From NCBI GenBank assembly GCA_000002445.1, contig CP000070.1:64001-128000 (forward strand): a DNA stretch of 64,000 bases, read 5' to 3'. The number at the start of each line of letters is the position of its first letter. The first letter of the stretch is position 1. The translations under genes and the position numbers were made by a program. This DNA is from Trypanosoma brucei (Eukaryota). Positions 5,132 to 38,630 of the stretch are shown here, piece by piece. The notes beneath the pieces were generated by a model. The model saw only the letters and a program-made list of their open reading frames with translations. It was not told the DNA's origin and searched no databases.

Positions 5132-6202
5132 TTAAAAATGTGCGGCAGCACTGTGAAAAAGTGCTGCAAGAAGGATCAGTAATGTGTATCCTCCTATAGA
5201 TTCTGCATAGCTGCCGTCATTACCAACTTCTGCTTCCTCACCCTCATCGTCACCCAATTCCTGCACATGATCATCGTCAGAAATTTCCACTTTTCCCTCA
5301 GGATCCTTCTTCGGTACTTCCTCAACTTCCGTTCTTTCCGTCTTTTCCTTGTCCTCTGGAACCTCCACGTTTCCTTCAGGATCCTTCTTCGGCACTTCCT
5401 CAACTTCCGTTCTTCCCGTCTTTTCCTTGTCCTCTGGAACCTCCACGTTTCCCTCAAATTCCTCCCTCGAAATCTCTTGAACATCCGCTTCTTCCGTCTC
5501 TGCCGTCCTTTCGGCTTCCTCAGCTGCCTTGCGTGCGTTGCTTTCAGCTGCCCTTGCTGCAACTCTTGCTTCGCCGGCACGCCGCACAGCAGCCTCTAAT
5601 TGATCATATTCCGCCCTGAGATCAACCATACGCGTCCTCGCGATCCTACATATTTCACCCATGAAAATAGCACATGCGGATTCCACAGCCTGTGTCAGCA
5701 CCCAGGAGTTAACTCCTCTATTTGGGAGACTGCAGCCTCTCGCAATTCGTCTTGCAGTACTGGCGGCACTATTGTCCTCTGCAACACTTTTCAGATAATC
5801 ATCAATCGGAGCGGTCTTTCCGGCTGCGAGCAGTGGGGCACGGGCCGCGTATTGCTCCACATCCGACAGGGCCGTCTTGGCGGCATTCTCCGCGCTCTCT
5901 GCTTCCTTTAGGGCAGCGCGAGCGCGTCCGACGGCCTCCTCCGCTTTGGGATTATTCCAAGAGGCATCCTCCGCTCGTCTCACGGCATCTTGGCAACCTT
6001 CTCTCGCTTTAGAGGCATCCGAGACATTCGCTGCCGCCAACGCTTTGAGGGCCTTCACACCGAAGGGTATTCCATGCAGCGCTTCTGAAAAGAGACATGC
6101 CGCACTTACATGACTCACTGTGTTTTGAGACCCTTCCTCAATTATGGAGTCGGCGGTGACATACGTAAGTATAGCAAGCAAGCACAAAAAACGGGCAGTC
6201 AT
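5132..6202 (-). CDS. Ala/Glu-rich GPI-anchored surface protein, copy 2, subtype A, with 2 repeats.
   Basis: 356-aa ORF, more than 90% identical to copy 1. Same signal peptide and GPI-like tail. Confidence 0.75.
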   Translation of the reverse strand: MTARFLCLLAILTYVTADSIIEEGSQNTVSHVSAACLFSEALHGIPFGVKALKALAAANVSDASKAREGCQDAVRRAEDASWNNPKAEEAVGRARAALKEAESAENAAKTALSDVEQYAARAPLLAAGKTAPIDDYLKSVAEDNSAASTARRIARGCSLPNRGVNSWVLTQAVESACAIFMGEICRIARTRMVDLRAEYDQLEAAVRRAGEARVAARAAESNARKAAEEAERTAETEEADVQEISREEFEGNVEVPEDKEKTGRTEVEEVPKKDPEGNVEVPEDKEKTERTEVEEVPKKDPEGKVEISDDDHVQELGDDEGEEAEVGNDGSYAESIGGYTLLILLAALFHSAAAHF

Positions 6203-6476
6203 GATTATCCCGAGTTGCTGTAGTGGTAGTTGTTAAAATGAATGTTAAGTCTAAATGCAGGCAACAGTAGGAAAGAGTGGGTAAATGTTTGTATTAATAA
6301 TTTCCCCCCTCGTGGAAAGCAGTTGTAACATGGGAGGAGGCATGGATGTTGTTCTTTTTGTGATTTTTAAAATTTTTTGTGTTAAATTTTCTGAGCATTG
6401 CTTTATTGGAAGAGATGACGGGACTTATTGCTTTTTCACAGTTGCCGTCGCTAACGGTAGTTGCGTTTCACTATGG

Positions 6477-7775
6477 TTATTCTTTCGACTGTCCCTGTTC
6501 AGCTATAAGTTCTCGAATGGCGATTGTGCTTCCAGATTTTATACTTGCAGTTTTTAATCGGGAGAGAACGCTTTCCAGTCGCTCGAAAGGATCATCACTA
6601 ACTGCAGCCAGAATGCTTTTCAAATAACTCAAGTCGGTTACAAGTTGTTCTACTGCAAGGGCCGCAGCATCGTCGCTATTAAGTGGGAAACACATTATAA
6701 TGTTGGCCACTTTAGACTCAATAAAGTCCGATACCGCCGTGCGCACAATATCATCTAACCAATATTCCGTTACTTCTTCGAGTAACTCTTCAATGCCGTC
6801 GAACCGTCCCTCGCTGCCACCCCGTAATGATTCGAGTGCTAATGGTATTTCCACAATGGCTTCACCAAAGCCGCGCACCATTTCACTAGGCGCAAGATGT
6901 AATGGCGTGTGTAGCACAGAATTGGAAATCACAGCGCTTCCTCCGTTACTCGACTGTAACCTCCAGAGTGGTTGCGACTCATAACCGTCAGCTGTGGCAA
7001 TAACGGGAGCAATGACAGTTTGTTTTATAGCCTGCTGGCATTCAGCAGCACAAATCACCAGTACATTGTTTAGTGGCCGCCACAGCTGTTCACTTAGTTG
7101 ACTATTGATAGACTCAACCTCAGTTGGACGTAGTCGGCGCACCTCCGCAGATTTGACATAGTCTTCGCACATTTTCTGCGTAGACAGAAGCAATTGTTGA
7201 ACAATTTTGCGTAACGCTGAAAGGCGCTCTAACAACTCCGTCTGGTGCGTGTGAGGTGCGGGTTGAAAAAATGTCAGCGACTGGACGAGTGCCACCTTCC
7301 ATCGGCTCACACAGATCGGTAATGTTTTGTCAGGAAAGAACTGAAGAACGGCCTTTACAGCTTCCATCAGTCCATTCATAACTACTTGAAATCGATCATA
7401 CTTCATGATAGATTGCGAATCCTTTAAGAGGTCTTCCACGCGCTCTGCTTCTCGCCGTGCAAATGATTCCAGCACCTTAGGTTGCTCGAATATGTGTGCA
7501 AGCTCAGTTTGAGTATAAAAATTAATTTGCTCTGCAATATCGTCCCGCCTACACAAACTGTTTTTAACGTTTCTTCCGTCCTCAGCACCAACACATACCT
7601 TCGGAGGAGTAGAATCAATTTTAATACTAAGCTGCCTTACTGCCTCAAAGCAGGAAATAAGCTCAACATTCCTCTCCACACACTGCAAAATGGGAGTTAA
7701 GCAAGTGGAAAGACATTCTACAACAGCGACCAAATCATGCATTAAACAAATTCCTTTCCCTCCAATAAAACTCAC
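6477..7775 (-). pseudogene. COG7-like gene 3' fragment, 5'-truncated but otherwise the intact C-terminal 432 codons (unit 2).
   Basis: The 432-aa ORF is near-identical to residues ~353-784 of the full gene. It has no N-terminal half and begins at the array junction (~7723). Confidence 0.8.
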
Positions 7776-8834
7776 ATTCGGTTAATTACACACCTGGCGC
7801 CCACAAGTCAAAATGTGCAATGCGCTAAAGATGTTGTGACTGCAGGATTGTACATCTCAAATAATATTCTCACAAGTATTGACTCTTCCGGCAGGTTTTC
7901 CAACTGAAGGTACGAATAATCAAACGCCGTCAACTCGCAACATTTAAAAGAAAATTATTTCTCTCCTTTCTTTCAGGGACTTTGAAATTGGAGGTTCTGC
8001 ACAAATCCTCAATCCTCCGGCAGGTGTAAGCTCCACTTCATTTCAGTGGTCAGATACATAACTAAATGAAAGTAAAGTATAACTAAACGACAGAGAGATT
8101 AAAGCAAAGGGGAAAACAAGCAACGACACTTACAAACAAGAAACAAGATAGTAAAATAAGTAAGTGGAAAGAAACTTAGGGAATCTAGAAGAAACATGCA
8201 GATGAAATAAAAAGAATATGGAGTCCCAAAACACATCGCAACGATAAAAACTGAATACCCCATGACAATAAAAATGGAAACAATTGTGTGGAGGGAAGGG
8301 TTATAAAAGAAAAAAAATAATAATAATGTTATCGTCTTTTTTTATCAAAAAAAATAAATAAATAAAAATGAAGTGAAGCAGATAAAATAGCAGATGGGTA
8401 TAGCCGCTATTTGAACACTTTCACAATAAATCCATCAACAAACGATGGGTAAGATGCGGTGTCTCAACAATGCAGCGTCTGCACACAGAAATCTCCAGTG
8501 TCATGTGCCCACCCGAATGTTTAAAGACGCCACACCAATAGGATAGCATTTAAAAAACAATAATAACAGAAAAGATAAATATGTGGGAGACGTATGGTTT
8601 AAAAAAATGAGTAAAAAGACTTTTTTGTAGCACTGGTGCGGTACGTAAAAATTTAGTATACCATTGAATTAAATAAGAATATAATAATGAAACGACCAGC
8701 GAAGAAAGCATAGGGGTGAGAAACGCCGTAAGTGGCCCCTCCCGTTGCAGTAGCGCCCTGTAACACGTGTTTAGCTAACGCCTAACTTCGACCTGTCGAC
8801 ACGGTAAGAGGATTAGGGAAACAGTTGACAGCTT

Positions 8835-9746
8835 TTAAAAATGTGCGGCAGCACTGTGAAAAAGTGCTGCAAGAAGGATCAGTAATGTGTATCCTCCTAT
8901 AGATTCTGCATAGCTGCCGTCATTACCAACTTCTGCTTCCTCACCCTCATCGTCACCCAATTCCTGCACATGATCATCGTCAGAAATTTCCACTTTTCCT
9001 TCAGGATCCTTCTTCGGCACTTCCTTAACTTTCGCTTTTTCCGTCTCTGCCGTCCTTTCGGCTTCCTCAGCTGCCTTGTGTGCGTTGCTTTCAGCTGCCC
9101 TTGCTGCAACTCTTGCTTCGCTGGCACGCCGCACAGCAGCCTCTAATTGATCATATTCCGCCCTGAGATCAGCCATACGCGCCCTCGCAGTGTTGCAGAT
9201 AACTGTCATGAAAACGGCACAACCGGATTCCACAGCCTGTGTCAGTACCCAGGAACTAACTTCAAGTGGGGCATTGCAGTCTCTCGCAATTCGTCTTGCA
9301 GTACTGGCGGCACTATTGTCCTCTGCAACACTTTTCAGATAATCATCAACCAGAGCTACATTGTTGTTCGCGAGCGCTGAGGCATTGGCAGCGTATTGCT
9401 CCACATCCGACAGGGCCGTCTTGGCGGCATTCTCCGCGCTCTCTGCTTCCTTTAGGGCAGCGCGAGCGCGTCCGACGGCCTCCTCCACCTTGGGAGTACT
9501 CGAAAAGGCATCCTCCGCTCGTCTCACGGCATCTTGGCAACCTTCTCTCGCTTTAGAGGCATCCGAGACATTCGCTGCCGCCGACGTCTTGAACACTTTG
9601 ACACTGTTGGGTACTCCATGCAGCGCTTCCGACATGAGACATGCCGCACTTACATGACTCACTGTGTCTTGAAACCCTTCCCCACCTTTGGGACCGGTGG
9701 TGACATACATAAGTATAGCAAGCAAGCACAAAAAACGGGCAGTCAT
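8835..9746 (-). CDS. Ala/Glu-rich GPI-anchored surface protein, copy 3, subtype B, no 78-bp repeat.
   Basis: 303-aa ORF. The N-terminal domain is divergent (TGPKGGEGFQDTV..., GVPNSVKVFKTS, ANASALANNNVALV). Signal peptide and C-terminal half match subtype A. Confidence 0.75.
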   Translation of the reverse strand: MTARFLCLLAILMYVTTGPKGGEGFQDTVSHVSAACLMSEALHGVPNSVKVFKTSAAANVSDASKAREGCQDAVRRAEDAFSSTPKVEEAVGRARAALKEAESAENAAKTALSDVEQYAANASALANNNVALVDDYLKSVAEDNSAASTARRIARDCNAPLEVSSWVLTQAVESGCAVFMTVICNTARARMADLRAEYDQLEAAVRRASEARVAARAAESNAHKAAEEAERTAETEKAKVKEVPKKDPEGKVEISDDDHVQELGDDEGEEAEVGNDGSYAESIGGYTLLILLAALFHSAAAHF

Positions 9747-10020
9747 GATTATCCCGAATTGCTGTAGTGGTAGTTGTTAAAATGAATGTTAAGTCTAAAT
9801 GCAGGCAACAGTAGGAAAGAGTGGGTAAATGTTTGTATTAATAATTTCCCCCCTCGTGGAAAGCAGTTGTAACATGGGAGGAGGCATGGATGTTGTTCTT
9901 TTTGTGATTTTTAAAATTTTTTGTGTTCAATTTTCTGAGCATTGCTTTATTGGAAGAGATGACGGGACTTATTGCTTTTTCACAGTTGCCGTCGCTAACG
10001 GTAGTTGCGTTTCACTATGG

Positions 10021-10693
10021 TTATTCTTTCGACTGTCCCTGTTCAGCTATAAGTTCTCGAATGGCGATTGTGCTTCCAGATTTTATACTTGCACTTTTTA
10101 ATCGGGAGAGAACGCTTTCCAGTCGCTCGAAAGGATCATCACTAACTGCAGCCAGAATGCTTTTCAAATAACTCAAGTCGGTTACAAAATGACAGCGACT
10201 GGACGAGTGCCACCTTCCATCGGCTCACACAGATCGGTAATGTTTTGTCAGGAAAGAACTGAAGAACGGCCTTTACAGCTTCCATCAGTCCATTCATAAC
10301 TACTTGAAATCGATCATACTTCATGATAGATTGCGAATCCTTTAAGAGGTCTTCCACGCGCTCTGCTTCTCGCCGTGCAAATGATTTCAGCACCTTAGGT
10401 TGCTCGAATATGTGTGCAAGCTCAGTTTGAGTATAAAAATTAATTTGCTCTGCAATATCGTCCCGCCTACACAAACTGTTTTTAACGTTTCTTCCGTCCT
10501 CAGCACCAACACATACCTTCGGAGGAGTAGAATCAATTTTAATACTAAGCTGCCTTACTGCCTCAAAGCAGGAAATAAGCTCAACATTCCTCTCCACACA
10601 CTGCAAAATGGGAGTTAAGCAAGTGGAAAGACATTCTACAACAGCGACCAAATCATGCATTAAACAAATTCCTTTCCCTCCAATAAAACTCAC
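10021..10693 (-). pseudogene. COG7-like 3' fragment, 5'-truncated with a ~610-bp internal deletion (unit 3).
   Basis: ORF 10142..10693 ends in the novel tail ...SLSFCNRLELFEKHSGCS. The deletion junction near 10188 is ggttacaa|aatgacagcg. The unit-2 copy is continuous across this point. Confidence 0.75.
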
Positions 10694-11753
10694 ATTCGGT
10701 TAATTACACACCTGGCGCCCACAAGTCAAAATGTGCAATGCGCTAAAGATGTTGTGACTGCAGGATTGTACATCTCAAATAATATTCTCACAAGTATTGA
10801 CTCTTCCGGCAGGTCTTCCAACTGAAGGTACGAATAATCAAACGCCGTCAACTCGCAACATTTAAAAGAAAATTATTTCTCTCCTTTCTTTCAGGGACTT
10901 TGAAATTGGAGGTTCTGCACAAATCCTCAATCCTCCGGCAGGTGTAAGCTCCACTTCATTTCAGTGGTCAGATACATAACTAAATGAAAGTAAAGTATAA
11001 CTAAACGACAGAGAGATTAAAGCAAAGGGGAAAACAAGCAACGACACTTACAAACAAGAAACAAGATAGTAAAATAAGTAAGTGGAAAGAAACTTAGGGA
11101 ATCTAGAAGAAACATGCAGATGAAATAAAAAGAATATGGAGTCCCAAAACACATCGCAACGATAAAAACTGAATACCCCATGACAATAAAAATGGAAACA
11201 ATTGTGTGGAGGGAAGGGTTATAAAAGAAAAAAAATAATAATAATGTTATCGTCTTTTTTTATCAAAAAAAATAAATAAATAAAAATGAAGTGAAGCAGA
11301 TAAAATAGCAGATGGGTATAGCCGCTATTTGAACACTTTCACAATAAATCCATCAACAAACGATGGGTAAGATGCGGTGTCTCAACAATGCAGCGTCTGC
11401 ACACAGAAATCTCCAGTGTCATGTGCCCACCCGAATGTTTAAAGACGCCACACCAATAGGATAGCATTTAAAAAACAATAATAACAGAAAAGATAAATAT
11501 GTGGGAGACGTATGGTTTAAAAAAATGAGTAAAAAGACTTTTTTGTAGCACTGGTGCGGTACGTAAAAATTTAGTATACCATTGAATTAAATAAGAATAT
11601 AATAATGAAACGACCAGCGAAGAAAGCATAGGGGTGAGAAACGCCGTAAGTGGCCCCTCCCGTTGCAGTAGCGCCCTGTAAACACGTGTTTAGCTAACGC
11701 CTAACTTCGACCTGTCGACACGGTAAGAGGATTAGGGAAACAGTTGACAGCTT

Positions 11754-12665
11754 TTAAAAATGTGCGGCAGCACTGTGAGAAAGTGCTGCAAGAAGGATCA
11801 GTAATGTGTATCCTCCTATAGATTCTGCATAGCTGCCGTCATTACCAACTTCTGCTTCCTCACCCTCATCGTCACCCAATTCCTGCACATGATCATCGTC
11901 AGAAATTTCCACTTTTCCTTCAGGATCCTTCTTCGGCACTTCCTTAACTTTCGCTTTTTCCGTCTCTGCCGTCCTTTCGGCTTCCTCAGCTGCCTTGTGT
12001 GCGTTGCTTTCAGCTGCCCTTGCTGCAACTCTTGCTTCGCTGGCACGCCGCACAGCAGCCTCTAATTGATCATATTCCGCCCTGAGATCAGCCATACGCG
12101 TCCTCGCAGTGTTGCAGATAACTGTCATGAAAACGGCACAACCGGATTCCACAGCCTGTGTCAGTACCCAGGAACTAACTTCAAGTGGGGCATTGCAGTC
12201 TCTCGCAATTCGTCTTGCAGTACTGGCGGCACTATTGTCCTCTGCAACACTTTTCAGATAATCATCAACCAGAGCTACATTGTTGTTCGCGAGCGCTGAG
12301 GCATTGGCAGCGTATTGCTCCACATCCGACAGGGCCGTCTTGGCGGCATTCTCCGCGCTCTCTGCTTCCTTTAGGGCAGCGCGAGCGCGTCCGACGGCCT
12401 CCTCCACCTTGGGAGTACTCGAAAAGGCATCCTCCGCTCGTCTCACGGCATCTTGGCAACCTTCTCTCGCTTTAGAGGCATCCAAGACATTCGCTGCCGC
12501 CGACGTCTTGAACACTTTGACACTGTTGGGTACTCCATGCAGCGCTTCCGACATGAGACATGCCGCACTTACATGACTCACTGTGTCTTGAAACCCTTCC
12601 CCACCTTTGGGACCGGTGGTGACATACGTAAGTATAGCAAGCAAGCACAAAAAACGGGCAGTCAT
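11754..12665 (-). CDS. Ala/Glu-rich GPI-anchored surface protein, copy 4, subtype B, nearly identical to copy 3.
   Basis: 303-aa ORF. Only a few substitutions against copy 3 (M13T, S61L, A188T, F296S). Confidence 0.75.
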   Translation of the reverse strand: MTARFLCLLAILTYVTTGPKGGEGFQDTVSHVSAACLMSEALHGVPNSVKVFKTSAAANVLDASKAREGCQDAVRRAEDAFSSTPKVEEAVGRARAALKEAESAENAAKTALSDVEQYAANASALANNNVALVDDYLKSVAEDNSAASTARRIARDCNAPLEVSSWVLTQAVESGCAVFMTVICNTARTRMADLRAEYDQLEAAVRRASEARVAARAAESNAHKAAEEAERTAETEKAKVKEVPKKDPEGKVEISDDDHVQELGDDEGEEAEVGNDGSYAESIGGYTLLILLAALSHSAAAHF

Positions 12666-12939
12666 GATTATCCCGAATTGCTGTAGTGGTAGTTGTTAAA
12701 ATGAATGTTAAGTCTAAATGCAGGCAACAGTAGGAAAGAGTGGGTAAATGTTTGTATTAATAATTTCCCCCCTCGTGGAAAGCAGTTGTAACATGGGAGG
12801 AGGCATGGATGTTGTTCTTTTTGTGATTTTTAAAATTTTTTGTGTTCAATTTTCTGAGCATTGCTTTATTGGAAGAGATGACGGGACTTATTGCTTTTTC
12901 ACAGTTGCCGTCGCTAACGGTAGTTGCGTTTCACTATGG

Positions 12940-13612
12940 TTATTCTTTCGACTGTCCCTGTTCAGCTATAAGTTCTCGAATGGCGATTGTGCTTCCAGAT
13001 TTTATACTTGCAGTTTTTAATCGGGAGAGAACGCTTTCCAGTCGCTCGAAAGGATCATCACTAACTGCAGCCAGAATGCTTTTCAAATAACTCAAGTCGG
13101 TTACAAAATGACAGCGACTGGACGAGTGCCACCTTCCATCGGCTCACACAGATCGGTAATGTTTTGTCAGGAAAGAACTGAAGAACGGCCTTTACAGCTT
13201 CCATCAGTCCATTCATAACTACTTGAAATCGATCATACTTCATGATAGATTGCGAATCCTTTAAGAGGTCTTCCACGCGCTCTGCTTCTCGCCGTGCAAA
13301 TGATTCCAGCACCTTAGGTTGCTCGAATATGTGTGCAAGCTCAGTTTGAGTATAAAAATTAATTTGCTCTGCAATATCGTCCCGCCTACACAAACTGTTT
13401 TTAACGTTTCTTCCGTCCTCAGCACCAACACATACCTTCGGAGGAGTAGAATCAATTTTAATACTAAGCTGCCTTACTGCCTCAAAGCAGGAAATAAGCT
13501 CAACATTCCTCTCCACACACTGCAAAATGGGAGTTAAGCAAGTGGAAAGACATTCTACAACAGCGACCAAATCATGCATTAAACAAATTCCTTTCCCTCC
13601 AATAAAACTCAC
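12940..13612 (-). pseudogene. COG7-like 3' fragment with the same internal deletion as unit 3 (unit 4).
   Basis: ORF 13061..13612 is near-identical to 10142..10693. The deletion junction is near 13107. Confidence 0.75.
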
Positions 13613-14665
13613 ATTCGGTTAATTACACACCTGGCGCCCACAAGTCAAAATGTGCAATGCGCTAAAGATGTTGTGACTGCAGGATTGTACATCTCAAATA
13701 ATATTCTCACAAGTATTGACTCTTCCGGCAGGTTTTCCAACTGAAGGTACGAATAATCAAACGCCGTCAACTCGCAACATTTAAAAGAAAATTATTTCTC
13801 TCCTTTCTTTCAGGGACTTTGAAATTGGAGGTTCTGCACAAATCCTCAATCCTCCGGCAGGTGTAAGCTCCACTTCATTTCAGTGGTCAGATACATAACT
13901 AAATGAAAGTAAAGTATAACTAAACGACAGAGAGATTAAAGCAAAGGGGAAAACAAGCAACGACACTTACAAACAAGAAACAAGATAGTAAAATAAGTAA
14001 GTGGAAAGAAACTTAGGGAATCTAGAAGAAACATGCAGATGAAATAAAAAGAATATGGAGTCCCAAAACACATCGCAACGATAAAAACTGAATACCCCAT
14101 GACAATAAAAATGGAAACAATTGTGTGGAAGAAAACACTGACAAAATAAATAAAAATAAAATAACAATATCACTATTTGAAAAAAAAAAGAATCAAGGGC
14201 AAAACGAGTCAGATAAAATAGCAGATGGGTATAGCCGCTATTTGAACACTTTCACAATAAATCCATCAACAAACGATGGGTAAGATGCGGTGTCTCGACA
14301 ATGCAGCGTCTGCACACAGAAATCTACAGTGTCATGCGCCCACCCGAATGTTTAAAGACGCCACACCAATAGGATAGCATTTAAAAAACAATAATAACAG
14401 AAAAGATAAATATGTGGGAGACGTATGGTTCAAAAAATGAGTAAAAAGACTTTTTTGTAGCACTGGTGCGGTACGTAAAAATTTAGTATACCATTGAATT
14501 AAATAAGAATATAATAATGAAACGACCAGCGAAGAAAGCATAGGGGTGAGAAACGCCGTAAGTGGCCCCTCCCGTTGCAGTAGCGCCCTGTAAACACGTG
14601 TTTAGCTAACGCCTAACTTCGACCTGTCGACACGGTAAGAGGATTAGGGAAACAGTTGACAGCTT

Positions 14666-15658
14666 TTAAAAATGTGCGGCAGCACTGTGAAAAAGTGCTG
14701 CAAGAAGGATCAGTAATGTGTATCCTCCTATAGATTCTGCATAGCTGCCGTCATTACCAACTTCTGCTTCCTCACCCTCATCGTCACCCAATTCCTGCAC
14801 ATGATCATCGTCAGAAATTTCCACTTTTCCTTCAGGATCCTTCTTCGGCACTTCCTCAACTTCCGTTCTTCCCGTCTTTTCCTTGTCCTCTGGAACCTCC
14901 ACGTTTCCCTCAAATTCCTCCCTCGAAATCTCTTGAACATCCGCTTCTTCCGTCTCTGCCGTCCTTTCGGCTTCCTCAGCTGCCTTGCGTGCGTTGCTTT
15001 CAGCTGCCCTTGCTGCAACTCTTGCTTCGCTGGCACGCCGCACAGCAGCCTCTAATTGATCATATTCCGCCCTGAGATCAACCATACGCGTCCTCGCGAT
15101 CCTACATATTTCACCCATGAAAATAGCACATGCGGATTCCACAGCCTGTGTCAGCACCCAGGAGTTAACTCCTCTATTTGGGAGACTGCAGCCTCTCGCA
15201 ATTCGTCTTGCAGTACTGGCGGCACTATTGTCCTCTGCAACACTTTTCAGATAATCATCAATCGGAGCGGTCTTTCCGGCTGCGAGCAGTGGGGCACGGG
15301 CCGCGTATTGCTCCACATCCGACAGGGCCGTCTTGGCGGCATTCTCCGCGCTCTCTGCTTCCTTTAGGGCAGCGCGAGCGCGTCCGACGGCCTCCTCCAC
15401 CTTGGGAGTACTCGAAAAGGCATCCTCCGCTCGTCTCACGGCATCTTGGCAACCTTCTCTCGCTTTAGAGGCATCCGAGACATTCGCTGCCGCCGACGCT
15501 TTGAGGGCCTTCACACCGAAGGGTATTCCATGCAGCGCTTCTGAAAAGAGACATGCCGCACTTACATGACTCACTGTGTTTTGAGACCCTTCCTCAATTA
15601 TGGAGTCGGCGGTGACATACGTAAGTATAGCAAGCAAGCACAAAAAACGGGCAGTCAT
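14666..15658 (-). CDS. Ala/Glu-rich GPI-anchored surface protein, copy 5, subtype A, with 1 repeat.
   Basis: 330-aa ORF. It is the closest copy to the intact COG7-like gene. Confidence 0.75.
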   Translation of the reverse strand: MTARFLCLLAILTYVTADSIIEEGSQNTVSHVSAACLFSEALHGIPFGVKALKASAAANVSDASKAREGCQDAVRRAEDAFSSTPKVEEAVGRARAALKEAESAENAAKTALSDVEQYAARAPLLAAGKTAPIDDYLKSVAEDNSAASTARRIARGCSLPNRGVNSWVLTQAVESACAIFMGEICRIARTRMVDLRAEYDQLEAAVRRASEARVAARAAESNARKAAEEAERTAETEEADVQEISREEFEGNVEVPEDKEKTGRTEVEEVPKKDPEGKVEISDDDHVQELGDDEGEEAEVGNDGSYAESIGGYTLLILLAALFHSAAAHF

Positions 15659-22439: not shown

Positions 22440-22900
22440 GAAAGGAAAGAATAGAAATAGAAGATGGAAAATAATGATGAGAATAATAACAATAACAATA
22501 ATAATAATAGAAAGCGGCTGCTCGAAACGTCACGAACAGAACACACACACACAAACACACAAACATACATACATAAATACAAGTACGCCTATATATATAT
22601 ATATGCTCACACCCAAGTTGCCGTCAACGATTTTTTCTTTTTTTCGCCCTTGAACGGAACAGCGATGGTTTTCAAAGATGGGGAAGGGGAACAGCAGCAG
22701 AAAGAAAGAAAAAAAACTTTCTACCTTTTCGGTGCTGCGCGCTACGACGACCCGTTACAAGGGAATTCGCAAAAAACAACAACAACAACAACAACAATAA
22801 CAAACAAACAAGCGGAAGGGCAACGTAAGTATTATTACAACAATGTAAACAAAAGACACAATCACAATCACAATCACAATGAGAAGACGAAGGTGACGAA
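22440..22900. repeat. Microsatellite-rich intergenic segment with (AAT/ATA)n, (CA)n/(ACA)n, (AT)8, (AAC)n and (CACAAT)4.
   Basis: Direct reading finds aataataacaataacaataataataat, cacacacacacaaacacacaaacatacatacat, atatatatatatat, aacaacaacaacaacaacaacaataacaaac and cacaatcacaatcacaatcacaatg. Confidence 0.85.
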
Positions 22901-29675: not shown

Positions 29676-32600
29676 TTACTCGCCGTCAACGAAACGGACA
29701 TCCTTCTTTCCATACTTTTCACGTCTTCTTTGAATGGTTCGATGGAGGAAACTTTTCAACGCAGTCCTTATGGCGCTCTCGGCCTTTTCCACACTTATTC
29801 CCATGTCTTTAAGCAAATCATCTTGCTTGTAACCCATAGATCCCTCATTTCCAGCACATGGAAGAGAAATCTCCTGGTGTTTAGTTGTCATGAGTTTTTG
29901 CGGTTGCGGCCGTCCCGGATGGTCAACAGAAAATTGTTCAGCAAAGCAGATATCACCAATTGATACGACAACAGAGGCAGGAGGTGTAATGTACTGCACC
30001 CGATTGCTTAGCACCCAATAACTCAGAACCTCATCCATGGGGTATGATTTCACTTCATCAAGTAATTGAGGGGGTGGTGTGCCCTCAAAGAGAGCGAGCG
30101 CATACCTGCCAGTGCGAACCGCACCATCCTCAGGAAACATCTTCAACAACGTCCAACCCACTTGCTCGACAAGAAGTTGTCTGCCTTCGTATTTTGGTAT
30201 GGTGTCCAAGTTTGTTATTCTCAATAGATACTTTTCAGCAACGGTAAAAGGGTGCGCCTTCACCATCCTTATTGCTTTGATGGGGTCATCGAAGTGTGGT
30301 GCACCAACATCCGACGACCAGCGAAATTTTTTGGTGTATGCTATGTTATTATGACCATTTATGTTGATGGATGTAACGACAACGTAAAGAGCTTCCCTTG
30401 TGCACATACCATGTACAGCCTCCGTGAGAATAAAGAAACCACGATTGGGGTCGTACGGCACAATGCTGCTGAAGTCCCGAAAGGATTGTGACCTTTGCTG
30501 GCCAAATGCCCTCATGGGTTCACCAATATCAGTATAATGAAACGACTTGCTGGTGTCAAGTGCTTCGCGTACAGAAAACAACTCCACTTCTCCATTCGAT
30601 AGCGGAGGCTCTCCGGGGTACTCAAAGGACGGTGCGTTCGGGTCAGAACCGACACACCATGAAATAAATCCACATGGATGACATTCGGCACGTGACTTCA
30701 ACGGTTGCAGAAGCTTGTCGTAAAGCGCTGCTGCATCAAACTTTCCCTCTGCGACTGCATGTTGGCGCTGTTTGGAGCTCCTGTACGATGTAAGAATGGA
30801 GGTGGGGCCTGAGAGCCTGTCAACATGCACCGACCGCGCTTCGGGTTCTCGGGGATCGCCTAATCGGATGCGTGAAAGGAAGTTTCCGACCGGTGCTAGC
30901 GTATGGATGGGAAGACTGACGTGGCCAAACGTGGTGGGGCCACATTTTGGGTTTGTAATGTATTCGATGATAACAATGGCATAAGTGTTGTTAGTAACCA
31001 TAATATCATCAAATTTGATGTCAAAGGTTGGTGATGTACCATTCCCACCACTTTTCTGATAACCAATAGCATTTGGTGGTCTCATGAACAGCTCACAATC
31101 AGAGGAGTCATTCACCAGCCCCTTTGTTTGACGGCTGATATAGTTGACAAAGTAAACCAAAACGCGAGCACACAAACAGTTCGGTGGTAGTCCAACAATT
31201 TTGTTAACACGCAAATCCACAGACGCAAAAGCCTCCCTTTCACTTCCAATTTTACGAGAGCTCGGTGCATCGCCCTCACTGCGGAGACCAAGCAAAACAC
31301 AAGCAGATAGAGGTGAGACTCTCTCCTCCACTGGAAACCTCTGCGACCCCGAGCCACCAGTAATTTTGTCCCCATTTCCATCGTTGTTGCGACCGCGGTT
31401 ACGCGTACCCGAGGCACCATTGGTTTTGGTGTCGGAACGTTCACCTTTCGAGGAAACACAACCTCCATTTGATTGACATGTCACGGCACCGGTATGATCC
31501 CTACCATCCCTTCCGTCCATACCGCCACGTCGAAACCGCCTCAATGTTGCAGTTGAGTTCTGAGGATCTGAGGGAGATGTAGTTTCCCTTTCCTCCTTGT
31601 ATTCACGTGGATACGGCCTCAATGTTGCAGTTGAGTTCTGAGGATCTGAGGGAGATGTACTTTCCCTTTCCTCTCTGTATTCACGTGGATACGGCCTCAA
31701 TGTTGCAGTTGAGTTCTGAGGATCTGAGGGAGATGTAGTTTCCCTTTCCTCCTTGTATTCACGTGGATACGGCCTCAATGTTGCAGTTGAGTTCTGAGGA
31801 CCTGAGGGAGATGTAGTTTCCCTTTCCTCCTTGTATTCACGTGGATACGGCCTCAATGTTGCAGTTGAGTTCTGAGGATCTGAGGGAGATGTAGTTTCCC
31901 TTTCCTCCTTGTATTCACGTGGATACGGCCTCAATGTTGCAGTTGAGTTCTGAGGATCTGAGGGAGATGTAGTTTCCCTTTCCTCCTTGTATTCACGTGG
32001 ATACGGCCTCAATGTTGCAGTTGAGTTCTGAGGACCTGAGGGAGATGTAGTTTCCCTTTCCTCCTTGTATTCACGTGGATACGGCCTCAATGTTGCAGTT
32101 GAGTTCTGAGGATCTGAGGGAGATGTAGTTTCCCTTTCCTCCTTGTATTCACGTGGATACGGCCTCAATGTTGCAGTTGAGTTCTGAGGATCTGAGGGAG
32201 ATGTAGTTTCCCTTTCCTCCTTGTATTCACGTGGATACGGCCTCAATGTTGCAGTTGAGTTCTGAGGATCTGAGGGAGATGTAGTTTCCCTTTCCTCCTT
32301 GTATTCACGTGGATACGGCCTCAATGTTGCAGTTGAGTTCTGAGGATCTGAGGGAGATGTAGTTTCCCTTTCCTCCTTGTATTCACGTGGATACGGCCTC
32401 AATGTTGCAGTTGAGTTCTGAGGATCTGAGGGAGATGTACTTTCCCTTTCCTCTCTGTATTCACGTGGATACGGCCTCAATGTTGCAGTTGAGTTCTGAG
32501 GATCTGAGGGAGATGTAGTTTCCCTTTCCTCCTTGTATTCACGTGGATACGGCCTCAATGTTGCAGTTGAGTTCTGAGGACCTGAGGGAGATGTACTTTC

Positions 32601-34391
32601 CCTTTCCTCTCTGTATTCACGTGGATACGGCCTCAATGTTGCAGTTGAGTTCTGAGGACCTGAGGGAGATGTACTTTCCCTTTCCTCCTTGTATTCACGT
32701 GGATACGGCCTCAATGTTGCAGTTGAGTTCTGAGGACCTGAGGGAGATGTAGTTTCCCTTTCCTCTCTGTATTCACGTGGATACGGTTTCAATATTGCAG
32801 TTGAGTTCTGAGGACCTGAGGGAGATGTAGTTTCCCTTTCCTCCCTGTATTCACGTGGATACGGCCTCAATGTTGCAGTTGAGTTCTGAGGACCTGAGGG
32901 AGATGTAGTTTCCCTTTCCTCTCTGTATTCACGTGGATACGGTTTCAATATTGCAGTTGAGTTCTGAGGACCTGAGGGAGATGTACTTTCCCTTTCCTCC
33001 TTGTGTGAAAAACTTTTTTTTGTCACTGGCGGGACTGGGGAGGCTGCTAATACCACTTTTCCGTTTTCGTCATAATTTTGTCGTTGCGTTTTAGTGTGTT
33101 GAATTGTCTCAGATGCTTTATCGACCCCTGTTTTAGCAGACATGCGGGGTCTAAGGTTTACTGCAGAAACACTGGGATCGTTCATGTTTTCTACCGTTTT
33201 GTTCGCAGCTGGCGGTTGCGACTCGAGACGATTCAAGTACGCTTCAGCTTCGCCTAAATCATCTGATGCTTTATCGGATATAAACCCTCGGAGTATAGGA
33301 TCATCTAAATTTATGTGCTCCACGACCAACGCAACCGCCATATCCACCGGTGGTTTCCTAAGTTTGCTTACCCATGGTCCTTCATACAAAGCATTCACAG
33401 ATGACCATGCGAACAAGCGCCCGCGGTATAGCAAATGTATTATGAACACGTGTAAGTCGTTGCATTCCGTTACGAAGAATTCCACTGGTTGCCCGAAAGA
33501 GGCATCAAATGATTTATTGTGCTCGCGCTTCATGTTGATGCTTCTGTATAGCCTGTGCCTAACTTCATGCAGGACTCGGGGCCCTTGACTTGAAACTACC
33601 TTGTACTCTTCCACACAAACGGTAAATTCGGTAGCTGGTGCGGTGATATCCATATCCTCAATGCCTTTAATGTTTAAACCGTATTTTCCCACACACAGCG
33701 ATGAGGTTTTAACCATTCGATTGAACTCAATAACGCAAACCTCTTCCCTGTTCCGGTTCCGTGTTGCCTCTCCACTGTTTAGTAGTTGATCCACCGCATC
33801 CGCATCCGCAGCCTCACCGAAACCGTCAAACAGCTCTTTTTCCCACTTTCCCGTTTCCGCCTTTCTGACTTTTGCCGGTGGAAGAGTCTCATCGTGATTA
33901 GGTCTGTCGTGCTGCTTTTCTTTCAGAGGTCGAGCCGTTATCGCGGATCTAAGCATGTCTCGTATCAAAGCAATATCTTTTCTCGTGTCCGCAATCACCC
34001 TTTCGTTAAGGGCTGCAGACTCCATTTGCTGAAGTGCCCGCTCCCGCATGTAAAGTTCCCTCGATGGAAGAAAAAGATTCAACCTTTCATTGGGTAGAGG
34101 CCTCAAATGTAACTGGCTGCTGGTCGAACTCACATCACGTCGATTCGTAGAGTTGTGGTTTGCACCTCCAATAATCTTCGGTAAGTCGAATGTGACCTTC
34201 TGAGAAGTTTCCTCATTGTAAAAAGAAACATCACACGACTTAACGGGCGTGGAGACTGCGAAAAGTTGAGACGCCGGAGACTCTTGCAGGTATTTGCCTT
34301 CAATTAGTAAGAAGCACTGAGGGACATGCTGTTGAGGCTTTAAAAAGCGTGAGTCTTCACTTATTCTGCCACAGTTGTCGCATTCACGCAT
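29676..34391 (-). CDS. Large hypothetical protein with about 19 tandem 26-aa Ser/Thr/Pro-rich repeats (YPREYKEERETTSPSDPQNSTATLRP).
   Basis: 1571-aa ORF. The central ~1.5 kb is a near-perfect 78-bp tandem repeat. Unique N- and C-terminal domains flank it. Confidence 0.65.
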   Translation of the reverse strand: MRECDNCGRISEDSRFLKPQQHVPQCFLLIEGKYLQESPASQLFAVSTPVKSCDVSFYNEETSQKVTFDLPKIIGGANHNSTNRRDVSSTSSQLHLRPLPNERLNLFLPSRELYMRERALQQMESAALNERVIADTRKDIALIRDMLRSAITARPLKEKQHDRPNHDETLPPAKVRKAETGKWEKELFDGFGEAADADAVDQLLNSGEATRNRNREEVCVIEFNRMVKTSSLCVGKYGLNIKGIEDMDITAPATEFTVCVEEYKVVSSQGPRVLHEVRHRLYRSINMKREHNKSFDASFGQPVEFFVTECNDLHVFIIHLLYRGRLFAWSSVNALYEGPWVSKLRKPPVDMAVALVVEHINLDDPILRGFISDKASDDLGEAEAYLNRLESQPPAANKTVENMNDPSVSAVNLRPRMSAKTGVDKASETIQHTKTQRQNYDENGKVVLAASPVPPVTKKSFSHKEERESTSPSGPQNSTAILKPYPREYREERETTSPSGPQNSTATLRPYPREYREERETTSPSGPQNSTAILKPYPREYREERETTSPSGPQNSTATLRPYPREYKEERESTSPSGPQNSTATLRPYPREYREERESTSPSGPQNSTATLRPYPREYKEERETTSPSDPQNSTATLRPYPREYREERESTSPSDPQNSTATLRPYPREYKEERETTSPSDPQNSTATLRPYPREYKEERETTSPSDPQNSTATLRPYPREYKEERETTSPSDPQNSTATLRPYPREYKEERETTSPSDPQNSTATLRPYPREYKEERETTSPSGPQNSTATLRPYPREYKEERETTSPSDPQNSTATLRPYPREYKEERETTSPSDPQNSTATLRPYPREYKEERETTSPSGPQNSTATLRPYPREYKEERETTSPSDPQNSTATLRPYPREYREERESTSPSDPQNSTATLRPYPREYKEERETTSPSDPQNSTATLRRFRRGGMDGRDGRDHTGAVTCQSNGGCVSSKGERSDTKTNGASGTRNRGRNNDGNGDKITGGSGSQRFPVEERVSPLSACVLLGLRSEGDAPSSRKIGSEREAFASVDLRVNKIVGLPPNCLCARVLVYFVNYISRQTKGLVNDSSDCELFMRPPNAIGYQKSGGNGTSPTFDIKFDDIMVTNNTYAIVIIEYITNPKCGPTTFGHVSLPIHTLAPVGNFLSRIRLGDPREPEARSVHVDRLSGPTSILTSYRSSKQRQHAVAEGKFDAAALYDKLLQPLKSRAECHPCGFISWCVGSDPNAPSFEYPGEPPLSNGEVELFSVREALDTSKSFHYTDIGEPMRAFGQQRSQSFRDFSSIVPYDPNRGFFILTEAVHGMCTREALYVVVTSININGHNNIAYTKKFRWSSDVGAPHFDDPIKAIRMVKAHPFTVAEKYLLRITNLDTIPKYEGRQLLVEQVGWTLLKMFPEDGAVRTGRYALALFEGTPPPQLLDEVKSYPMDEVLSYWVLSNRVQYITPPASVVVSIGDICFAEQFSVDHPGRPQPQKLMTTKHQEISLPCAGNEGSMGYKQDDLLKDMGISVEKAESAIRTALKSFLHRTIQRRREKYGKKDVRFVDGE
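31511..32996 (-). repeat. 78-bp coding tandem repeat, about 19 copies, with minor D/G, K/R, S/T and TL/IL variants.
   Basis: Period counted directly: tgaggatctgagggagatgtagtttccctttcctccttgtattcacgtggatacggcctcaatgttgcagttgagttc is 78 nt. Confidence 0.9.
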
Positions 34392-35075: not shown

Positions 35076-36146
35076 CTACCCGCCACTGTTCAAAGCAGAG
35101 AGCGGCCCATTTTCATCAAGCACATCAACTTTTGTAAGTTCAACACCGAAACATTCCATGAGCCGCCCCTCAAGCTCACTTCTGCGCTTTTTCCACGTAG
35201 AGGTAATGCGACAAAGTTTACGGTTGGGTGACTCGATTCGAGCCGCAAGTAACTCACCATCTATACGCTGCACTTCCCCTTCAGGGGCGAATGTGGCTTC
35301 CTTCGCCGCAGTGTTGTTAGCATCGAGAAGACGTTTAAGATCTATATGAAACGTACAAGCCCAATCAACCTCAAAACGGGGATGCGTGCTTCGCTCACTC
35401 TGCCCAACGTAGTGACGGAGAGTGTGCATATGTCGCAAAACTAAAATTTCATCACTGCTGTTTCTCTCCTTTCCACACGCACCTCCCTCGGTATAGACAT
35501 AAACTGCCCATGAAACATCTTGCATATGTTTGCACCATGAGAAACGGAGCGCATCAGTAACATGCTGTGTTGAAAAGAAAGCAACAGACTGCACCATGTA
35601 TTGCATCAAGCGCAACGCTTTGCTGTGAACTGTGTATTTGGGTGCATATCCGCCACCGCCGTTTTGGATATTTGTGACCGCATCCGTCTCGCCGCCCGCG
35701 CCACCATTTTCGGTATTTGCTTCAGTGGCACGCATCATGCCACTTTCAAGCAGCACAGTCATGAGAAGCGATGATGAGTCAGGGATGTCTTTTTGCTGCT
35801 TTTCCCATTCAGACTTTATGACGCTTGAGTCTTCCCCACACAACTCTACAAGTAACTCCAGGGATTCGCGAACGCGCTCATTTCTGTCCGAAAAATACTT
35901 GCTTTCGTCTTCCTTATCTTTCAGCACCAATACACTCACATGGTCCTGCTTTTCCCGATAGTAATTATTTCTGTTTGGGGCTGCCACATATACTTGCGTT
36001 CTGGGGAAGTCTCGCGTGACACCTGTGGGATCCTTTCCAATGTCTCCAAGAAGTCGCCCCCTCCAGGATTCCTTTTTTTCATCCATTAATCCAACGAAAC
36101 TGCAACGCACATCCGTTGAGCTTTCGGTTGAACATCCGCTTCCCAT
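35076..36146 (-). CDS. Hypothetical protein with a predicted N-myristoylation and palmitoylation signal (MGSGCS).
   Basis: 356-aa ORF. Gly2 followed by Cys5 gives an N-terminal dual acylation consensus. Gly-rich central segment. Confidence 0.45.
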   Translation of the reverse strand: MGSGCSTESSTDVRCSFVGLMDEKKESWRGRLLGDIGKDPTGVTRDFPRTQVYVAAPNRNNYYREKQDHVSVLVLKDKEDESKYFSDRNERVRESLELLVELCGEDSSVIKSEWEKQQKDIPDSSSLLMTVLLESGMMRATEANTENGGAGGETDAVTNIQNGGGGYAPKYTVHSKALRLMQYMVQSVAFFSTQHVTDALRFSWCKHMQDVSWAVYVYTEGGACGKERNSSDEILVLRHMHTLRHYVGQSERSTHPRFEVDWACTFHIDLKRLLDANNTAAKEATFAPEGEVQRIDGELLAARIESPNRKLCRITSTWKKRRSELEGRLMECFGVELTKVDVLDENGPLSALNSGG

Positions 36147-38081: not shown

Positions 38082-38630
38082 TTAGCCGGGGCCTTTTTCT
38101 TTTTCTTTCTCCCTTTCTCCCCTCTCCTCATCCTCAGGTTTAACTAAACCCACAGCAAAGGGTTGAAGCATGCTTTCACATGATACCCATCGATGGTAAT
38201 AGTTGAATAGCTCCGTTGCGTCTCTCCCACCACAAAGCTGAAGCATCCGCTCCCCTCCCGGGTGAAAATGCTGAAACTTTGTGCAGTCATACACCACGGA
38301 ACCTATAACTATCCATAGATCATCAGGTGTGTTGTGTCTCCTGATTTCACTTATACTAAGGTACGGTAACTTTTTTTCATTAGTCTCCCGTTTCATCTTC
38401 CTCCATATGCTCTGCAATATTCCACCCCAGTCAACCATTGAGAAACCGGCTCTACATGAACTCTTCGCGCGCAACATAACATCCAACGTCTCACGGGTGA
38501 CTTCCATCCGAAACGGCTCATCATCCGCTGAACGCCCAGCCGTGGATGGATTTTGTGAAAACGCCTCCTTTTCTGAATCAGTGCTGAGCTCGTTGGGTGA
38601 TTCGGGGTTTCCTCCGTCAGGCAAAGACAT
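38082..38630 (-). CDS. Cytochrome b5-like heme-binding domain protein.
   Basis: 182-aa ORF. Motifs HNTPDDLWIVIGSVVYDCTKFQHFHPGGERMLQLCGGRDATELF, with the HPGG heme-ligand signature. Confidence 0.65.
   Translation of the reverse strand: MSLPDGGNPESPNELSTDSEKEAFSQNPSTAGRSADDEPFRMEVTRETLDVMLRAKSSCRAGFSMVDWGGILQSIWRKMKRETNEKKLPYLSISEIRRHNTPDDLWIVIGSVVYDCTKFQHFHPGGERMLQLCGGRDATELFNYYHRWVSCESMLQPFAVGLVKPEDEERGEREKEKEKGPG

What the first reader, a model, noticed from the sequence alone, without database searches (positions are those of the whole stretch)
31511..32996. About 19 near-perfect 78-bp repeats encoding a Ser/Thr/Pro-rich 26-mer in a 1571-aa protein
The repeat is YPREYKEERETTSPSDPQNSTATLRP, with NST sequons and S/T/P runs. 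Patterned variants (SGPQN or SDPQN, EYKEE or EYREE, TATLRP or TAILKP) form a partial 156-bp higher-order repeat at the N-proximal end. Such highly homogenised repeats in trypanosomatid proteins are typically immunodominant antigens or cytoskeletal or flagellar linkers. They are also frequent sites of assembly collapse, so the true copy number may be larger. The 78-bp period matches the surface-gene repeat, but the sequences are unrelated, so I take that as coincidence.
Basis: seen in the sequence. Interest (0 to 1): 0.5.

Follow-up and report, generated by a model that had tools for sequence, protein, structure and literature searches.

The report
Species-specific repeat linker in trypanosome protein
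A real run of 19 near-identical 26-amino-acid repeats sits in the flexible linker of an uncharacterised but conserved Trypanosoma brucei protein; it is a recent, fast-changing, brucei-only insertion of a familiar kind, not a new kind of element.

Summary
Tandem Repeats Finder gives 31526-33004, period 78, 19.0 copies, 97% matches. The array lies in the only open frame, inside the 1571-aa minus-strand ORF 29676-34391.

The protein is XP_845674.1 / Q57U04, a "hypothetical protein, conserved" of T. b. brucei TREU927 chromosome 7. By gene counting it is probably Tb927.7.500.

The array is a T. brucei-lineage insertion in a variable linker between a conserved N-terminal beta-sandwich and a conserved C-terminal module. 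The T. congolense, T. cruzi, Leishmania and Phytomonas orthologues lack it. T. vivax has an unrelated 39-aa repeat in the same linker.

Copy number and dominant variant differ between assemblies: 19 in TREU927, 15.8 in T. b. gambiense, 6.7 in T. b. equiperdum. The flanks stay about 99% identical, so the array evolves in concert. A T. equiperdum OVI contig ends inside the array, so the count of 19 is not independently verified.

There is no signal peptide or membrane segment, so the NST sequons are probably irrelevant.

The array is most likely a disordered, tolerated spacer. An antigenic role is untested. The C-terminal module resembles proteins of flagellated eukaryotes that are auto-annotated as CCDC17; this is a lead only.

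Ordinary kind, modest interest.

The parts
29676..34391 (-). ORF of 1571 aa. It is XP_845674.1 / UniProt Q57U04, 'hypothetical protein, conserved', T. b. brucei TREU927 chromosome 7. Probably Tb927.7.500, inferred by counting genes from two anchors.
   Evidence: The ORF is listed. It is an exact-sequence match to the public protein. The anchors for the gene number are Tb927.7.360-440 = the MISP genes and Tb927.7.530 = the FYVE protein, with the intervening ORFs.
31536..33017 (-). Tandem array of 19 units of 78 bp (26 aa), aa 459-952. Unit 0 is degenerate in its first 5 codons. The last unit ends ...TLRR.
   Evidence: TRF gives 31526-33004, 19.0 copies, 97% matches. The units are listed in register. 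This is the only open frame of six.
34314..34382 (-). N-terminal Cys-X2-Cys-X14-His-X3-Cys motif (aa 4-26). It is a degenerate copy of a C-X2-C-X12-H-X4-C/H finger found at the extreme N-terminus of relatives.
   Evidence: The motif is found at the N-terminus of kinetoplastid orthologues and of remote homologues P0082, P0044, P0064 and P0107. The relatives give sub-threshold zf-C2H2 hits, but the T. brucei copy gives none.
33351..33707 (-). Conserved N-terminal all-beta domain (aa ~229-347), with a C2-like beta-sandwich fold in a moderate-confidence model.
33018..33071 (-). Short conserved linker motif D-x-N/D-G-x-x-[IV]-[IVL]...P-x-x-[YFT]-K (aa 441-458). The array starts directly after it.
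   Evidence: Shown by alignments.
31272..31535 (-). Non-repetitive Gly/Arg/Asp/Asn-rich remainder of the linker (aa 953-~1040).
   Evidence: Poorly conserved in the alignments. The model has low pLDDT and no secondary structure here.
29679..31271 (-). Conserved C-terminal module (aa ~1040-1571), present in all kinetoplastid orthologues.
   Evidence: Identity is 51% to T. congolense and 35% to T. cruzi. Invariant columns are listed. The profile search found 78 relatives.
29931..30707 (-). Segment aa 1229-1487, homologous to the C-terminal domain of chytrid proteins annotated 'CCDC17'. It contains a PI3K_C2/DOCK-C2-type beta domain with the GW...GRY.LPLF.G.PP signature.
   Evidence: hhalign gives probability 97%, E 4.9e-11 over 251 columns. 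The remote hit P0064 scores above the Pfam PI3K_C2 threshold at the matched position, as does P0075.

Best explanation
The array is a young insertion specific to the T. brucei lineage. It lies in the intrinsically disordered, length-variable linker of a conserved, cytosolic, multi-domain kinetoplastid protein. That protein has an N-terminal zinc-finger-like motif, a coiled coil, a C2-like beta-sandwich, the linker, and a C-terminal module with a PI3K-type C2-like domain.

The array arose by duplication of a 78-bp linker segment. It is kept homogeneous, and changes in copy number, through unequal recombination, slippage or gene conversion (concerted evolution).

At the protein level it most likely acts as a flexible, hydrophilic Pro/Ser/Thr/Glu/Arg-rich spacer. 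It lengthens the tether between the two conserved parts from about 220 to about 716 residues. Its exact sequence and length are tolerated rather than required. As a by-product it offers 19 copies of an S-P site and of a linear epitope.

Shown: the repeat exists, its reading frame, its position, its restriction to the T. brucei lineage, its copy-number variation, and its concerted evolution.
Inferred: disorder, the spacer role, and the lack of a requirement for the exact sequence.
For: Reality and frame:
- 19.0 copies at 97% identity, in the only open frame.

Lineage restriction:
- The T. congolense, T. cruzi, T. c. marinkellei, Leishmania and Phytomonas orthologues have no internal repeat.
- The distance between two conserved anchors is 716 aa in T. 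brucei. It is 144-203 aa in most orthologues, including T. congolense (179) and T. cruzi (176); 259-321 aa in three others, including Phytomonas (288); and about 440 aa of non-repeat sequence in Leishmania.

Linker tolerance:
- T. vivax carries an unrelated 39-aa repeat of about 7.5 copies in the same linker.

Concerted evolution:
- TREU927 units carry T23/R25 in 17 of 18 units.
- DAL972 units carry I23 in 13 of 15 and K25 in 14 of 15.
- T. b. equiperdum units carry T23/K25 in 5 of 6.
- The flanks differ between TREU927 and DAL972 by only 5 of 458 and 6 of 619 residues.

Relaxed constraint:
- All 8 variable DNA columns within the TREU927 array change the amino acid.
- The flanks show 17 synonymous against 11 non-synonymous codon differences.

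Disorder-like composition:
- E, P, T, S and R make up 70% of the array, mean hydropathy is -1.87, and there are no hydrophobic runs.

Cytosolic location:
- No signal peptide or TM-like segment.
Against: - No experimental data on expression, localisation, phosphorylation or antigenicity were found.
- Disorder is inferred from composition only.
- Two independent expansions (T. brucei and T. vivax) plus a long Leishmania linker could mean that selection favours a longer tether, not mere tolerance.
- Copy-number differences between assemblies may partly be assembly artefacts. The OVI contig breaks in the array, and the T. b. gambiense genome paper warns that assembled repeat numbers can be arbitrary (PMC2854126).
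- The structure models were too poor to define domain boundaries: C-terminal pLDDT 29, N-terminal 44.
Confidence: 0.65

Rival explanations
1. The array is a functional length-setting or multivalent element of a flagellum- or cytoskeleton-associated protein. The repeats act as a ruler or tether, or as a 19-fold docking or phosphorylation platform (TSPS[DG]P, YPREY). Selection favoured a longer linker independently in T. brucei, T. vivax and Leishmania.
For: - There are independent expansions in the same linker: a 39-aa repeat in T. vivax and about 440 aa of non-repeat linker in Leishmania.
- The C-terminal module is homologous to proteins auto-annotated as CCDC17. Relatives occur in lineages I know to be flagellated: chytrids, an oomycete and Chromera. 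They also occur in an ichthyosporean and Picozoa.
- CCDC17 is a marker of human multiciliated cells and is listed as a ciliary tip protein (PMC13096173, PMC12700831).
- There is one S-P site per unit.
Against: - Copy number ranges from 6.7 to 19 among very close subspecies. That argues against a tight length requirement.
- Within-array variants are all non-synonymous.
- The CCDC17 link rests on automated names of chytrid proteins. No comparison with human CCDC17 was possible.
- No localisation data were found.
Confidence: 0.2
2. The array is mainly relevant as an immunodominant B-cell epitope (a tandem-repeat antigen) released from lysed parasites.
For: - The array is a high-scoring, highly homogenised tandem repeat (TRF score 2727).
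- From my own knowledge, not tested here: many trypanosomatid tandem-repeat proteins, such as GM6, MARP and the T. cruzi repeat antigens, are strong serological targets even though they are intracellular.
- The repeat is hydrophilic and proline-rich.
Against: - No serological data could be found or produced here.
- The protein is not predicted to be surface-exposed or secreted.
- Expression level is unknown.
- Antigenicity would be a consequence of the repeat, not a cellular mechanism, so it is compatible with the best explanation.
Confidence: 0.1
3. The array, or its copy number, is an assembly artefact, through either collapse or over-expansion.
For: - A T. equiperdum OVI contig ends inside the last unit.
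- Assembled copy numbers differ.
- At 1.48 kb with eight identical units, the array is longer than a Sanger read (own knowledge).
- The T. b. gambiense genome paper cautions that assembled repeat numbers can be arbitrary.
Against: - The same unit, in frame and at the same position, occurs in three independent assemblies, each with its own dominant variant.
- The array as such is therefore real. Only the exact number, 19, is uncertain.
Confidence: 0.05

Closest known systems
Trypanosomatid intracellular tandem-repeat proteins and antigens (for example T. brucei GM6, MARP, FAZ1 and T. cruzi repeat antigens; named from my own knowledge)
   Same: Long, almost perfectly homogenised, in-frame tandem repeats inside large non-secreted proteins. 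They are hydrophilic and low in complexity, and their copy number varies between strains.
   Different: The unit sequence has no relationship to any of them that I could detect. No cytoskeletal localisation or antigenicity has been shown for this protein. Here the repeat is an insertion in a linker between conserved globular parts; it does not make up the bulk of the protein.
MISP (Tb927.7.360-440) C-terminal 26-residue motifs, in the same window (PMC10089363)
   Same: The period is the same, 78 bp or 26 aa. The motifs are charged and probably unstructured, and their copy number varies between paralogues (1-3 motifs).
   Different: The sequences are unrelated: 31/78 identity, the same as shuffled controls. 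MISP proteins have a signal peptide and a GPI anchor and sit on the cell surface. This protein has neither signal. Copy number here is 19, against 1-3.
T. vivax orthologue (UniProt G0TXI6), with its own array of about 7.5 copies of a 39-aa repeat
   Same: The protein family and the inter-domain linker are the same. It too is a homogenised tandem repeat rich in S, P, N, Q and G.
   Different: The unit sequence and period (117 bp) are different. The array lies N-terminal to the short D-x-x-G...P-x-x-Y-K motif, whereas in T. brucei it lies C-terminal to it. The origin is therefore independent.
CCDC17-like proteins of flagellated eukaryotes (chytrid proteins named 'Coiled-coil domain-containing protein 17' by NCBI; relatives in oomycete, Chromera, ichthyosporean and Picozoa)
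   Same: The C-terminal ~260 residues are homologous (hhalign 97%, E 4.9e-11). This includes a PI3K_C2-type beta domain with the GW...G.YQLPLF.G signature. Several remote relatives share the extreme N-terminal C-X2-C-X12-H-X4-C finger.
   Different: Only the C-terminal module aligns. The middle of the protein, the N-terminal beta-sandwich and the repeats are kinetoplastid- or species-specific. Human CCDC17 itself was not compared. The T. brucei finger is degenerate.

Membership tests
Trypanosomatid tandem-repeat (TR) proteins / TR antigens | Long in-frame tandem repeat with a high Tandem Repeats Finder score inside a protein-coding gene | tested here: met
   TRF score 2727, 19.0 copies, 97% matches. 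The frame is open and in phase with the flanks.
Trypanosomatid tandem-repeat (TR) proteins / TR antigens | Recognition by sera of infected hosts | not testable with these tools
C2 domain superfamily, PI3K_C2 / DOCK-C2 type | Match to the Pfam model above the curated threshold in the protein itself | tested here: not met
   The full protein has no Pfam family even at E <= 1. Three of 13 orthologues give sub-threshold PI3K_C2 hits, best E 0.006.
C2 domain superfamily, PI3K_C2 / DOCK-C2 type | Transitive homology: the family profile hits proteins whose matched segment is a Pfam PI3K_C2 domain | tested here: met
   P0064 is matched at aa 1344-1491 (E 7.6e-6). Pfam PI3K_C2 covers aa 1379-1481 of it at 38.2 bits, above the cutoff of 26.4. 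P0075 is matched at aa 1739-1940. Pfam PI3K_C2 covers aa 1833-1885 of it at 28.6 bits.
C2 domain superfamily, PI3K_C2 / DOCK-C2 type | Eight-stranded beta-sandwich fold | tested here: inconclusive
CCDC17 family | Sequence homology to proteins annotated as CCDC17 | tested here: met
   hhalign of the orthologue profile against chytrid P0061 ('Coiled-coil domain-containing protein 17'): 97% probability, E 4.9e-11, 251 columns, C-terminal module only. The name is an automated annotation.
CCDC17 family | Homology to, and reciprocal best match with, human or animal CCDC17 | not tested
CCDC17 family | Association with motile cilia or flagella | not testable with these tools
   Only indirect evidence exists. 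Relatives occur in lineages I know to be flagellated (chytrids, oomycete, Chromera), and also in an ichthyosporean and Picozoa. Human CCDC17 is used as a ciliated-cell marker and listed as a ciliary tip protein.
MISP / Fam50 surface-protein repeats | Sequence similarity to the MISP 26-residue motif, plus a signal peptide and GPI signal | tested here: not met
   Identity is 31/78, against 30.2 +/- 1.7 for shuffles. No hydrophobic N- or C-terminal segment is present.
Secreted or surface N-glycosylated mucin-like repeat proteins | Entry into the secretory pathway (signal peptide or TM segment), so that the NST sequons and S/T/P runs can be glycosylated | tested here: not met
   The highest 19-residue hydropathy mean is 1.36. 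The N-terminus MRECDNCGRISEDSRF is polar. This used a simple hydropathy scan, not a dedicated predictor.

The most novel reading that the evidence does not exclude
The protein is the kinetoplastid representative of an ancient cilium-associated family: CCDC17-like, with an N-terminal C2HC finger and a C-terminal PI3K-type C2 module. Its inter-domain tether is under recurrent selection for greater length in trypanosomatids. That selection has been met three times independently: a 26-aa repeat in T. brucei, a 39-aa repeat in T. vivax, and non-repetitive expansion in Leishmania. The repeat array would then be an adaptive, tunable spacer in a flagellar structure, not neutral junk.
Probability: 0.12. 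Interest if true: 0.55.

Novelty: new member of a known kind. Interest (0 to 1): 0.3.

Why it matters
For annotation: a 'hypothetical protein, conserved' gains a domain map. That map is a degenerate zinc-finger-like N-terminus, a C2-like beta-sandwich, a disordered linker carrying the brucei-specific repeat, and a C-terminal module shared with proteins of other, largely flagellated, eukaryotes.

For genomics: the array is a concrete locus where short-read assemblies break. Subspecies differ there in copy number and in dominant variant. It could therefore serve as a strain or subspecies typing marker and as a check on assembly quality.

For diagnostics: a 19-fold 26-mer restricted to the T. brucei group is a cheap candidate peptide antigen, but this is untested.

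None of this changes current understanding of trypanosome biology unless the flagellar-tether reading proves true.

Tried and rejected
- Pfam on the whole protein gave no hit at E <= 1.
- PDB sequence searches found nothing useful. I tried the N and C parts, the orthologue profile, the last-domain profile (spurious MBP matches only), and remote relatives P0082 and P0061.
- AlphaFold2 on 4-5-sequence alignments gave poor models. The C-terminal model had pLDDT 29 and is unusable. The N-terminal model had pLDDT 44, with only the beta domain near 70.
- A third protein-database search, using a 26-sequence alignment of the last domain, returned nothing new.
- The afdb50 fold library was unavailable.
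- hhalign found no internal homology between the three beta-rich regions.
- Literature searches found nothing on the gene. I searched for Tb927.7.470-540, Q57U04 and XP_845674, and the supplements of the TrypTag and structure-annotation papers. Apparent hits were longer gene IDs such as Tb927.7.5300 and Tb927.7.4700.
- A search for tandem-repeat-antigen screens found nothing relevant.
- Relationship to the MISP 78-bp repeat was rejected: identity equals shuffled controls.
- Glycosylated surface mucin was rejected: no signal peptide or TM segment.
- The repeat's YPREYK resembles the conserved P-x-x-[YF]-K linker motif of orthologues (PRNFK, PDDYK, PVNYK). I noted this as a possible origin of the unit, but the alignment does not settle it.
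Full report
**1. The observation**

Tandem Repeats Finder reports one array at 31526-33004. It has period 78, 19.0 copies, 97% matches, no indels and score 2727.

The array lies inside a 1571-aa ORF on the minus strand, 29676..34391. In codon register it occupies residues 459-952, which is window 31536-33017. There are 18 full units beginning YPREY. They are preceded by a first unit whose five N-terminal codons differ (KSFSH), and the last unit ends TLRR.

The consensus unit is YPREYKEERETTSPSDPQNSTATLRP. Eight units are identical to it at the DNA level. Only eight nucleotide columns vary among the full units, giving K/R at position 6, T/S at 11, D/G at 16, T/I at 23, R/K at 25 and P/R at 26.

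Of the six reading frames across the array, only this one is open. The others have 14-39 stops.

The 'partial 156-bp higher-order repeat' is weakly real. In units 1-8, units two apart differ by 1.5 nt on average and neighbours by 3.3 nt (from the matrix). TRF reports no 156-bp period here.

**2. Where the window comes from**

The ORF product is identical to XP_845674.1 / UniProt Q57U04, 'hypothetical protein, conserved', on T. brucei brucei TREU927 chromosome 7.

All ORFs of at least 200 aa but one lie on the minus strand, as expected for a trypanosomatid polycistron. The single plus-strand ORF overlaps a longer minus-strand one.

The window starts with five GARP-family genes. These are the MISP genes Tb927.7.360-440; MISP360 is 382 aa, as here (PMC10089363). 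The window also contains the MORN-FYVE protein. I take this to be Tb927.7.530, the FYVE-domain protein cited in PMC3593210.

Counting ORFs from both anchors makes the gene Tb927.7.500. This is an inference. I found no paper that mentions this gene or its neighbours, and nothing in the supplements of the TrypTag paper or of a structure-based annotation paper.

**3. The protein around the repeat**

The whole protein has no Pfam hit, and there is no relative of known structure by sequence.

Orthologues exist in:
- T. congolense (878 aa, 51% identity over the C-terminal part), T. cruzi (1003 aa) and T. c. marinkellei;
- T. vivax, Leishmania (1374 aa) and Phytomonas.

Alignments show two conserved parts. 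The first is an all-beta domain at about aa 229-347. The second is a large C-terminal module from about aa 1040 to the end. A poorly conserved linker separates them.

A profile search of 1.8 billion representative proteins found 78 relatives. The distant ones match only the last beta-rich region, roughly aa 1300-1450 of the T. brucei protein. In two of them that segment scores above the Pfam PI3K_C2 threshold. This segment is therefore a PI3K/DOCK-type C2-like domain by transitive homology.

Named distant relatives are chytrid proteins that NCBI calls 'Coiled-coil domain-containing protein 17'. Others come from an oomycete, Chromera, an ichthyosporean and Picozoa. Profile-to-sequence comparison with one chytrid protein gives 97% probability, E 4.9e-11, over T. 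brucei aa 1229-1487.

A C-X2-C-X12-H-X4-C finger sits at the extreme N-terminus of kinetoplastid orthologues and of several distant relatives. It gives sub-threshold C2H2 zinc-finger hits. The T. brucei copy has altered spacing (C-X2-C-X14-H-X3-C) and hits nothing.

Human CCDC17 is used as a marker of multiciliated cells (PMC13096173). It is also listed among ciliary tip proteins (PMC12700831). I could not compare the protein with an animal CCDC17, so this remains a lead and not a membership claim.

**4. The repeat is a recent, lineage-specific linker insertion**

None of the T. congolense, T. cruzi, Leishmania or Phytomonas orthologues has an internal repeat.

I measured the distance between two conserved anchors, the PPVD motif ending the N-terminal domain and an invariant Gly at the start of the C-terminal module:

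| Species | Linker length |
|---|---|
| T. brucei | 716 aa, of which 494 are repeat |
| T. congolense | 179 aa |
| T. cruzi | 176 aa |
| Four unnamed orthologues (P0010, P0011, P0021, P0023) | 144-203 aa |
| Two further unnamed relatives (P0020; P0016, which lacks the N-terminal anchor) | 259 and 321 aa |
| Phytomonas | 288 aa |
| Leishmania | about 440 aa, non-repetitive |
| T. vivax | 478 aa |

The T. vivax protein (G0TXI6) has its own array of about 7.5 copies of an unrelated 39-aa unit, MVNDQMGLQQSQGILQRGNAVSPNASGTRYPDVSLVGSA. That array lies N-terminal to a short conserved motif (D-x-x-G...P-x-x-Y-K). The T. brucei array starts directly C-terminal to the same motif. The linker has therefore been expanded by tandem duplication at least twice, independently.

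**5. Concerted evolution and copy number**

| Assembly | Copies | Dominant variant (positions 23/25) |
|---|---|---|
| T. b. brucei TREU927 | 19.0 | T/R in 17 of 18 units |
| T. b. gambiense DAL972, 1493 aa | 15.8 | I in 13 of 15, K in 14 of 15 units |
| T. b. equiperdum GCA_003543875.1 | 6.7 | T/K in 5 of 6 units |

In the T. b. equiperdum assembly the gene is split into three ORFs.

Between TREU927 and DAL972 the flanks differ at only 5 of 458 and 6 of 619 residues. Units are thus more alike within a genome than between genomes. This is the signature of unequal exchange or gene conversion.

Within the TREU927 array every variable column changes the amino acid. The flanks show 17 synonymous against 11 non-synonymous codon differences. 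This weakly indicates relaxed constraint on the repeat sequence.

In the T. equiperdum OVI assembly the contig ends inside the last unit. Assemblers clearly struggle here. The T. b. gambiense genome paper itself warns that assembled repeat numbers can be arbitrary (PMC2854126). The array is real, but the number 19 is not independently verified.

**6. Properties of the repeat**

E, P, T, S and R make up 70% of the array. Mean hydropathy is -1.87, against about -0.5 in the flanks. Each unit has one NST sequon, one S-P site and two tyrosines, and a net charge of -1.

The protein has no hydrophobic stretch that could be a signal peptide or membrane segment; the highest 19-residue mean is 1.36. N-glycosylation of the sequons is therefore unlikely.

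The 78-bp MISP repeat in the same window is unrelated in sequence: 31/78 identity, against 30.2 +/- 1.7 for shuffles.

**7. Interpretation**

The best-supported reading is a young, rapidly turning-over, disordered spacer inserted in a tolerant linker of a conserved cytosolic multi-domain protein.

Whether the added length is used is open. It might serve as a tether in a flagellar or cytoskeletal assembly, or as a multivalent phospho-site array. The independent T. vivax expansion, the long Leishmania linker and the CCDC17-like relatives hint at such a use. The three-fold copy-number range among near-identical subspecies argues against it.

Antigenicity is plausible by analogy with other trypanosomatid repeat proteins (my own knowledge), but it is untested.

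The feature belongs to a well-known class. It is an undescribed member of that class and not a new kind of element.

Noticed in passing
window 1972-15658 (minus strand); TRF arrays at 2126-2417 and 5286-5499: Five GARP-family genes are the MISP surface-protein genes Tb927.7.360-440. Their 78-bp repeats encode the published 26-residue motif EVEEVPKKDPEGNVEVPEDKEKTERT. They are unrelated in sequence to the array studied here.
   Followed up: yes
P0085 (T. vivax Y486, UniProt G0TXI6) aa ~339-633; also P0012 and P0028: The T. vivax orthologue of the studied gene has its own tandem array of about 7.5 copies of an unrelated 39-aa unit, in the same inter-domain linker. In two T. vivax gene models the gene is truncated or split at the array.
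   Followed up: partly
L003 1-180 (T. equiperdum OVI contig CZPT02000146.1): The contig ends inside the last repeat unit, so this assembly breaks exactly at the array.
   Followed up: yes
L002 5264-9042 (T. b. equiperdum GCA_003543875.1): The orthologous gene is annotated as three consecutive ORFs of 238, 529 and 469 aa. This suggests frameshifts from sequencing errors or a pseudogene. I did not resolve which.
   Followed up: no
window 35076-36146 (minus strand): The neighbouring 356-aa ORF has no Pfam hit and starts MGSGCS, a candidate N-myristoylation plus palmitoylation signal.
   Followed up: no
window 38082-38630 (minus strand): A 182-aa ORF lies between the 356-aa gene and the MORN-FYVE gene. 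The T. b. equiperdum locus has a 185-aa gene with a Cyt-b5 Pfam hit in the corresponding position.
   Followed up: partly
window 59400-61001 and 62093-63541 (minus strand): Two tandem ATP-dependent DNA ligase genes, each with a treble-clef zinc-finger domain. From memory these are probably the kinetoplast DNA ligases k-alpha and k-beta. Not checked.
   Followed up: no
P0002 and P0003 (T. cruzi and T. c. marinkellei orthologues), first ~30-42 residues: The annotated N-termini (..VVVFFLFLCVFVFVL.. and ..FLFFFFLFSFPFLSFFLL..) look like a translated polypyrimidine tract. The real start is probably the MFYCTVCG methionine that opens the zinc-finger motif.
   Followed up: no
window 22775-22803: An (AAC)n microsatellite of 9.7 copies lies between ORFs.
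   Followed up: no
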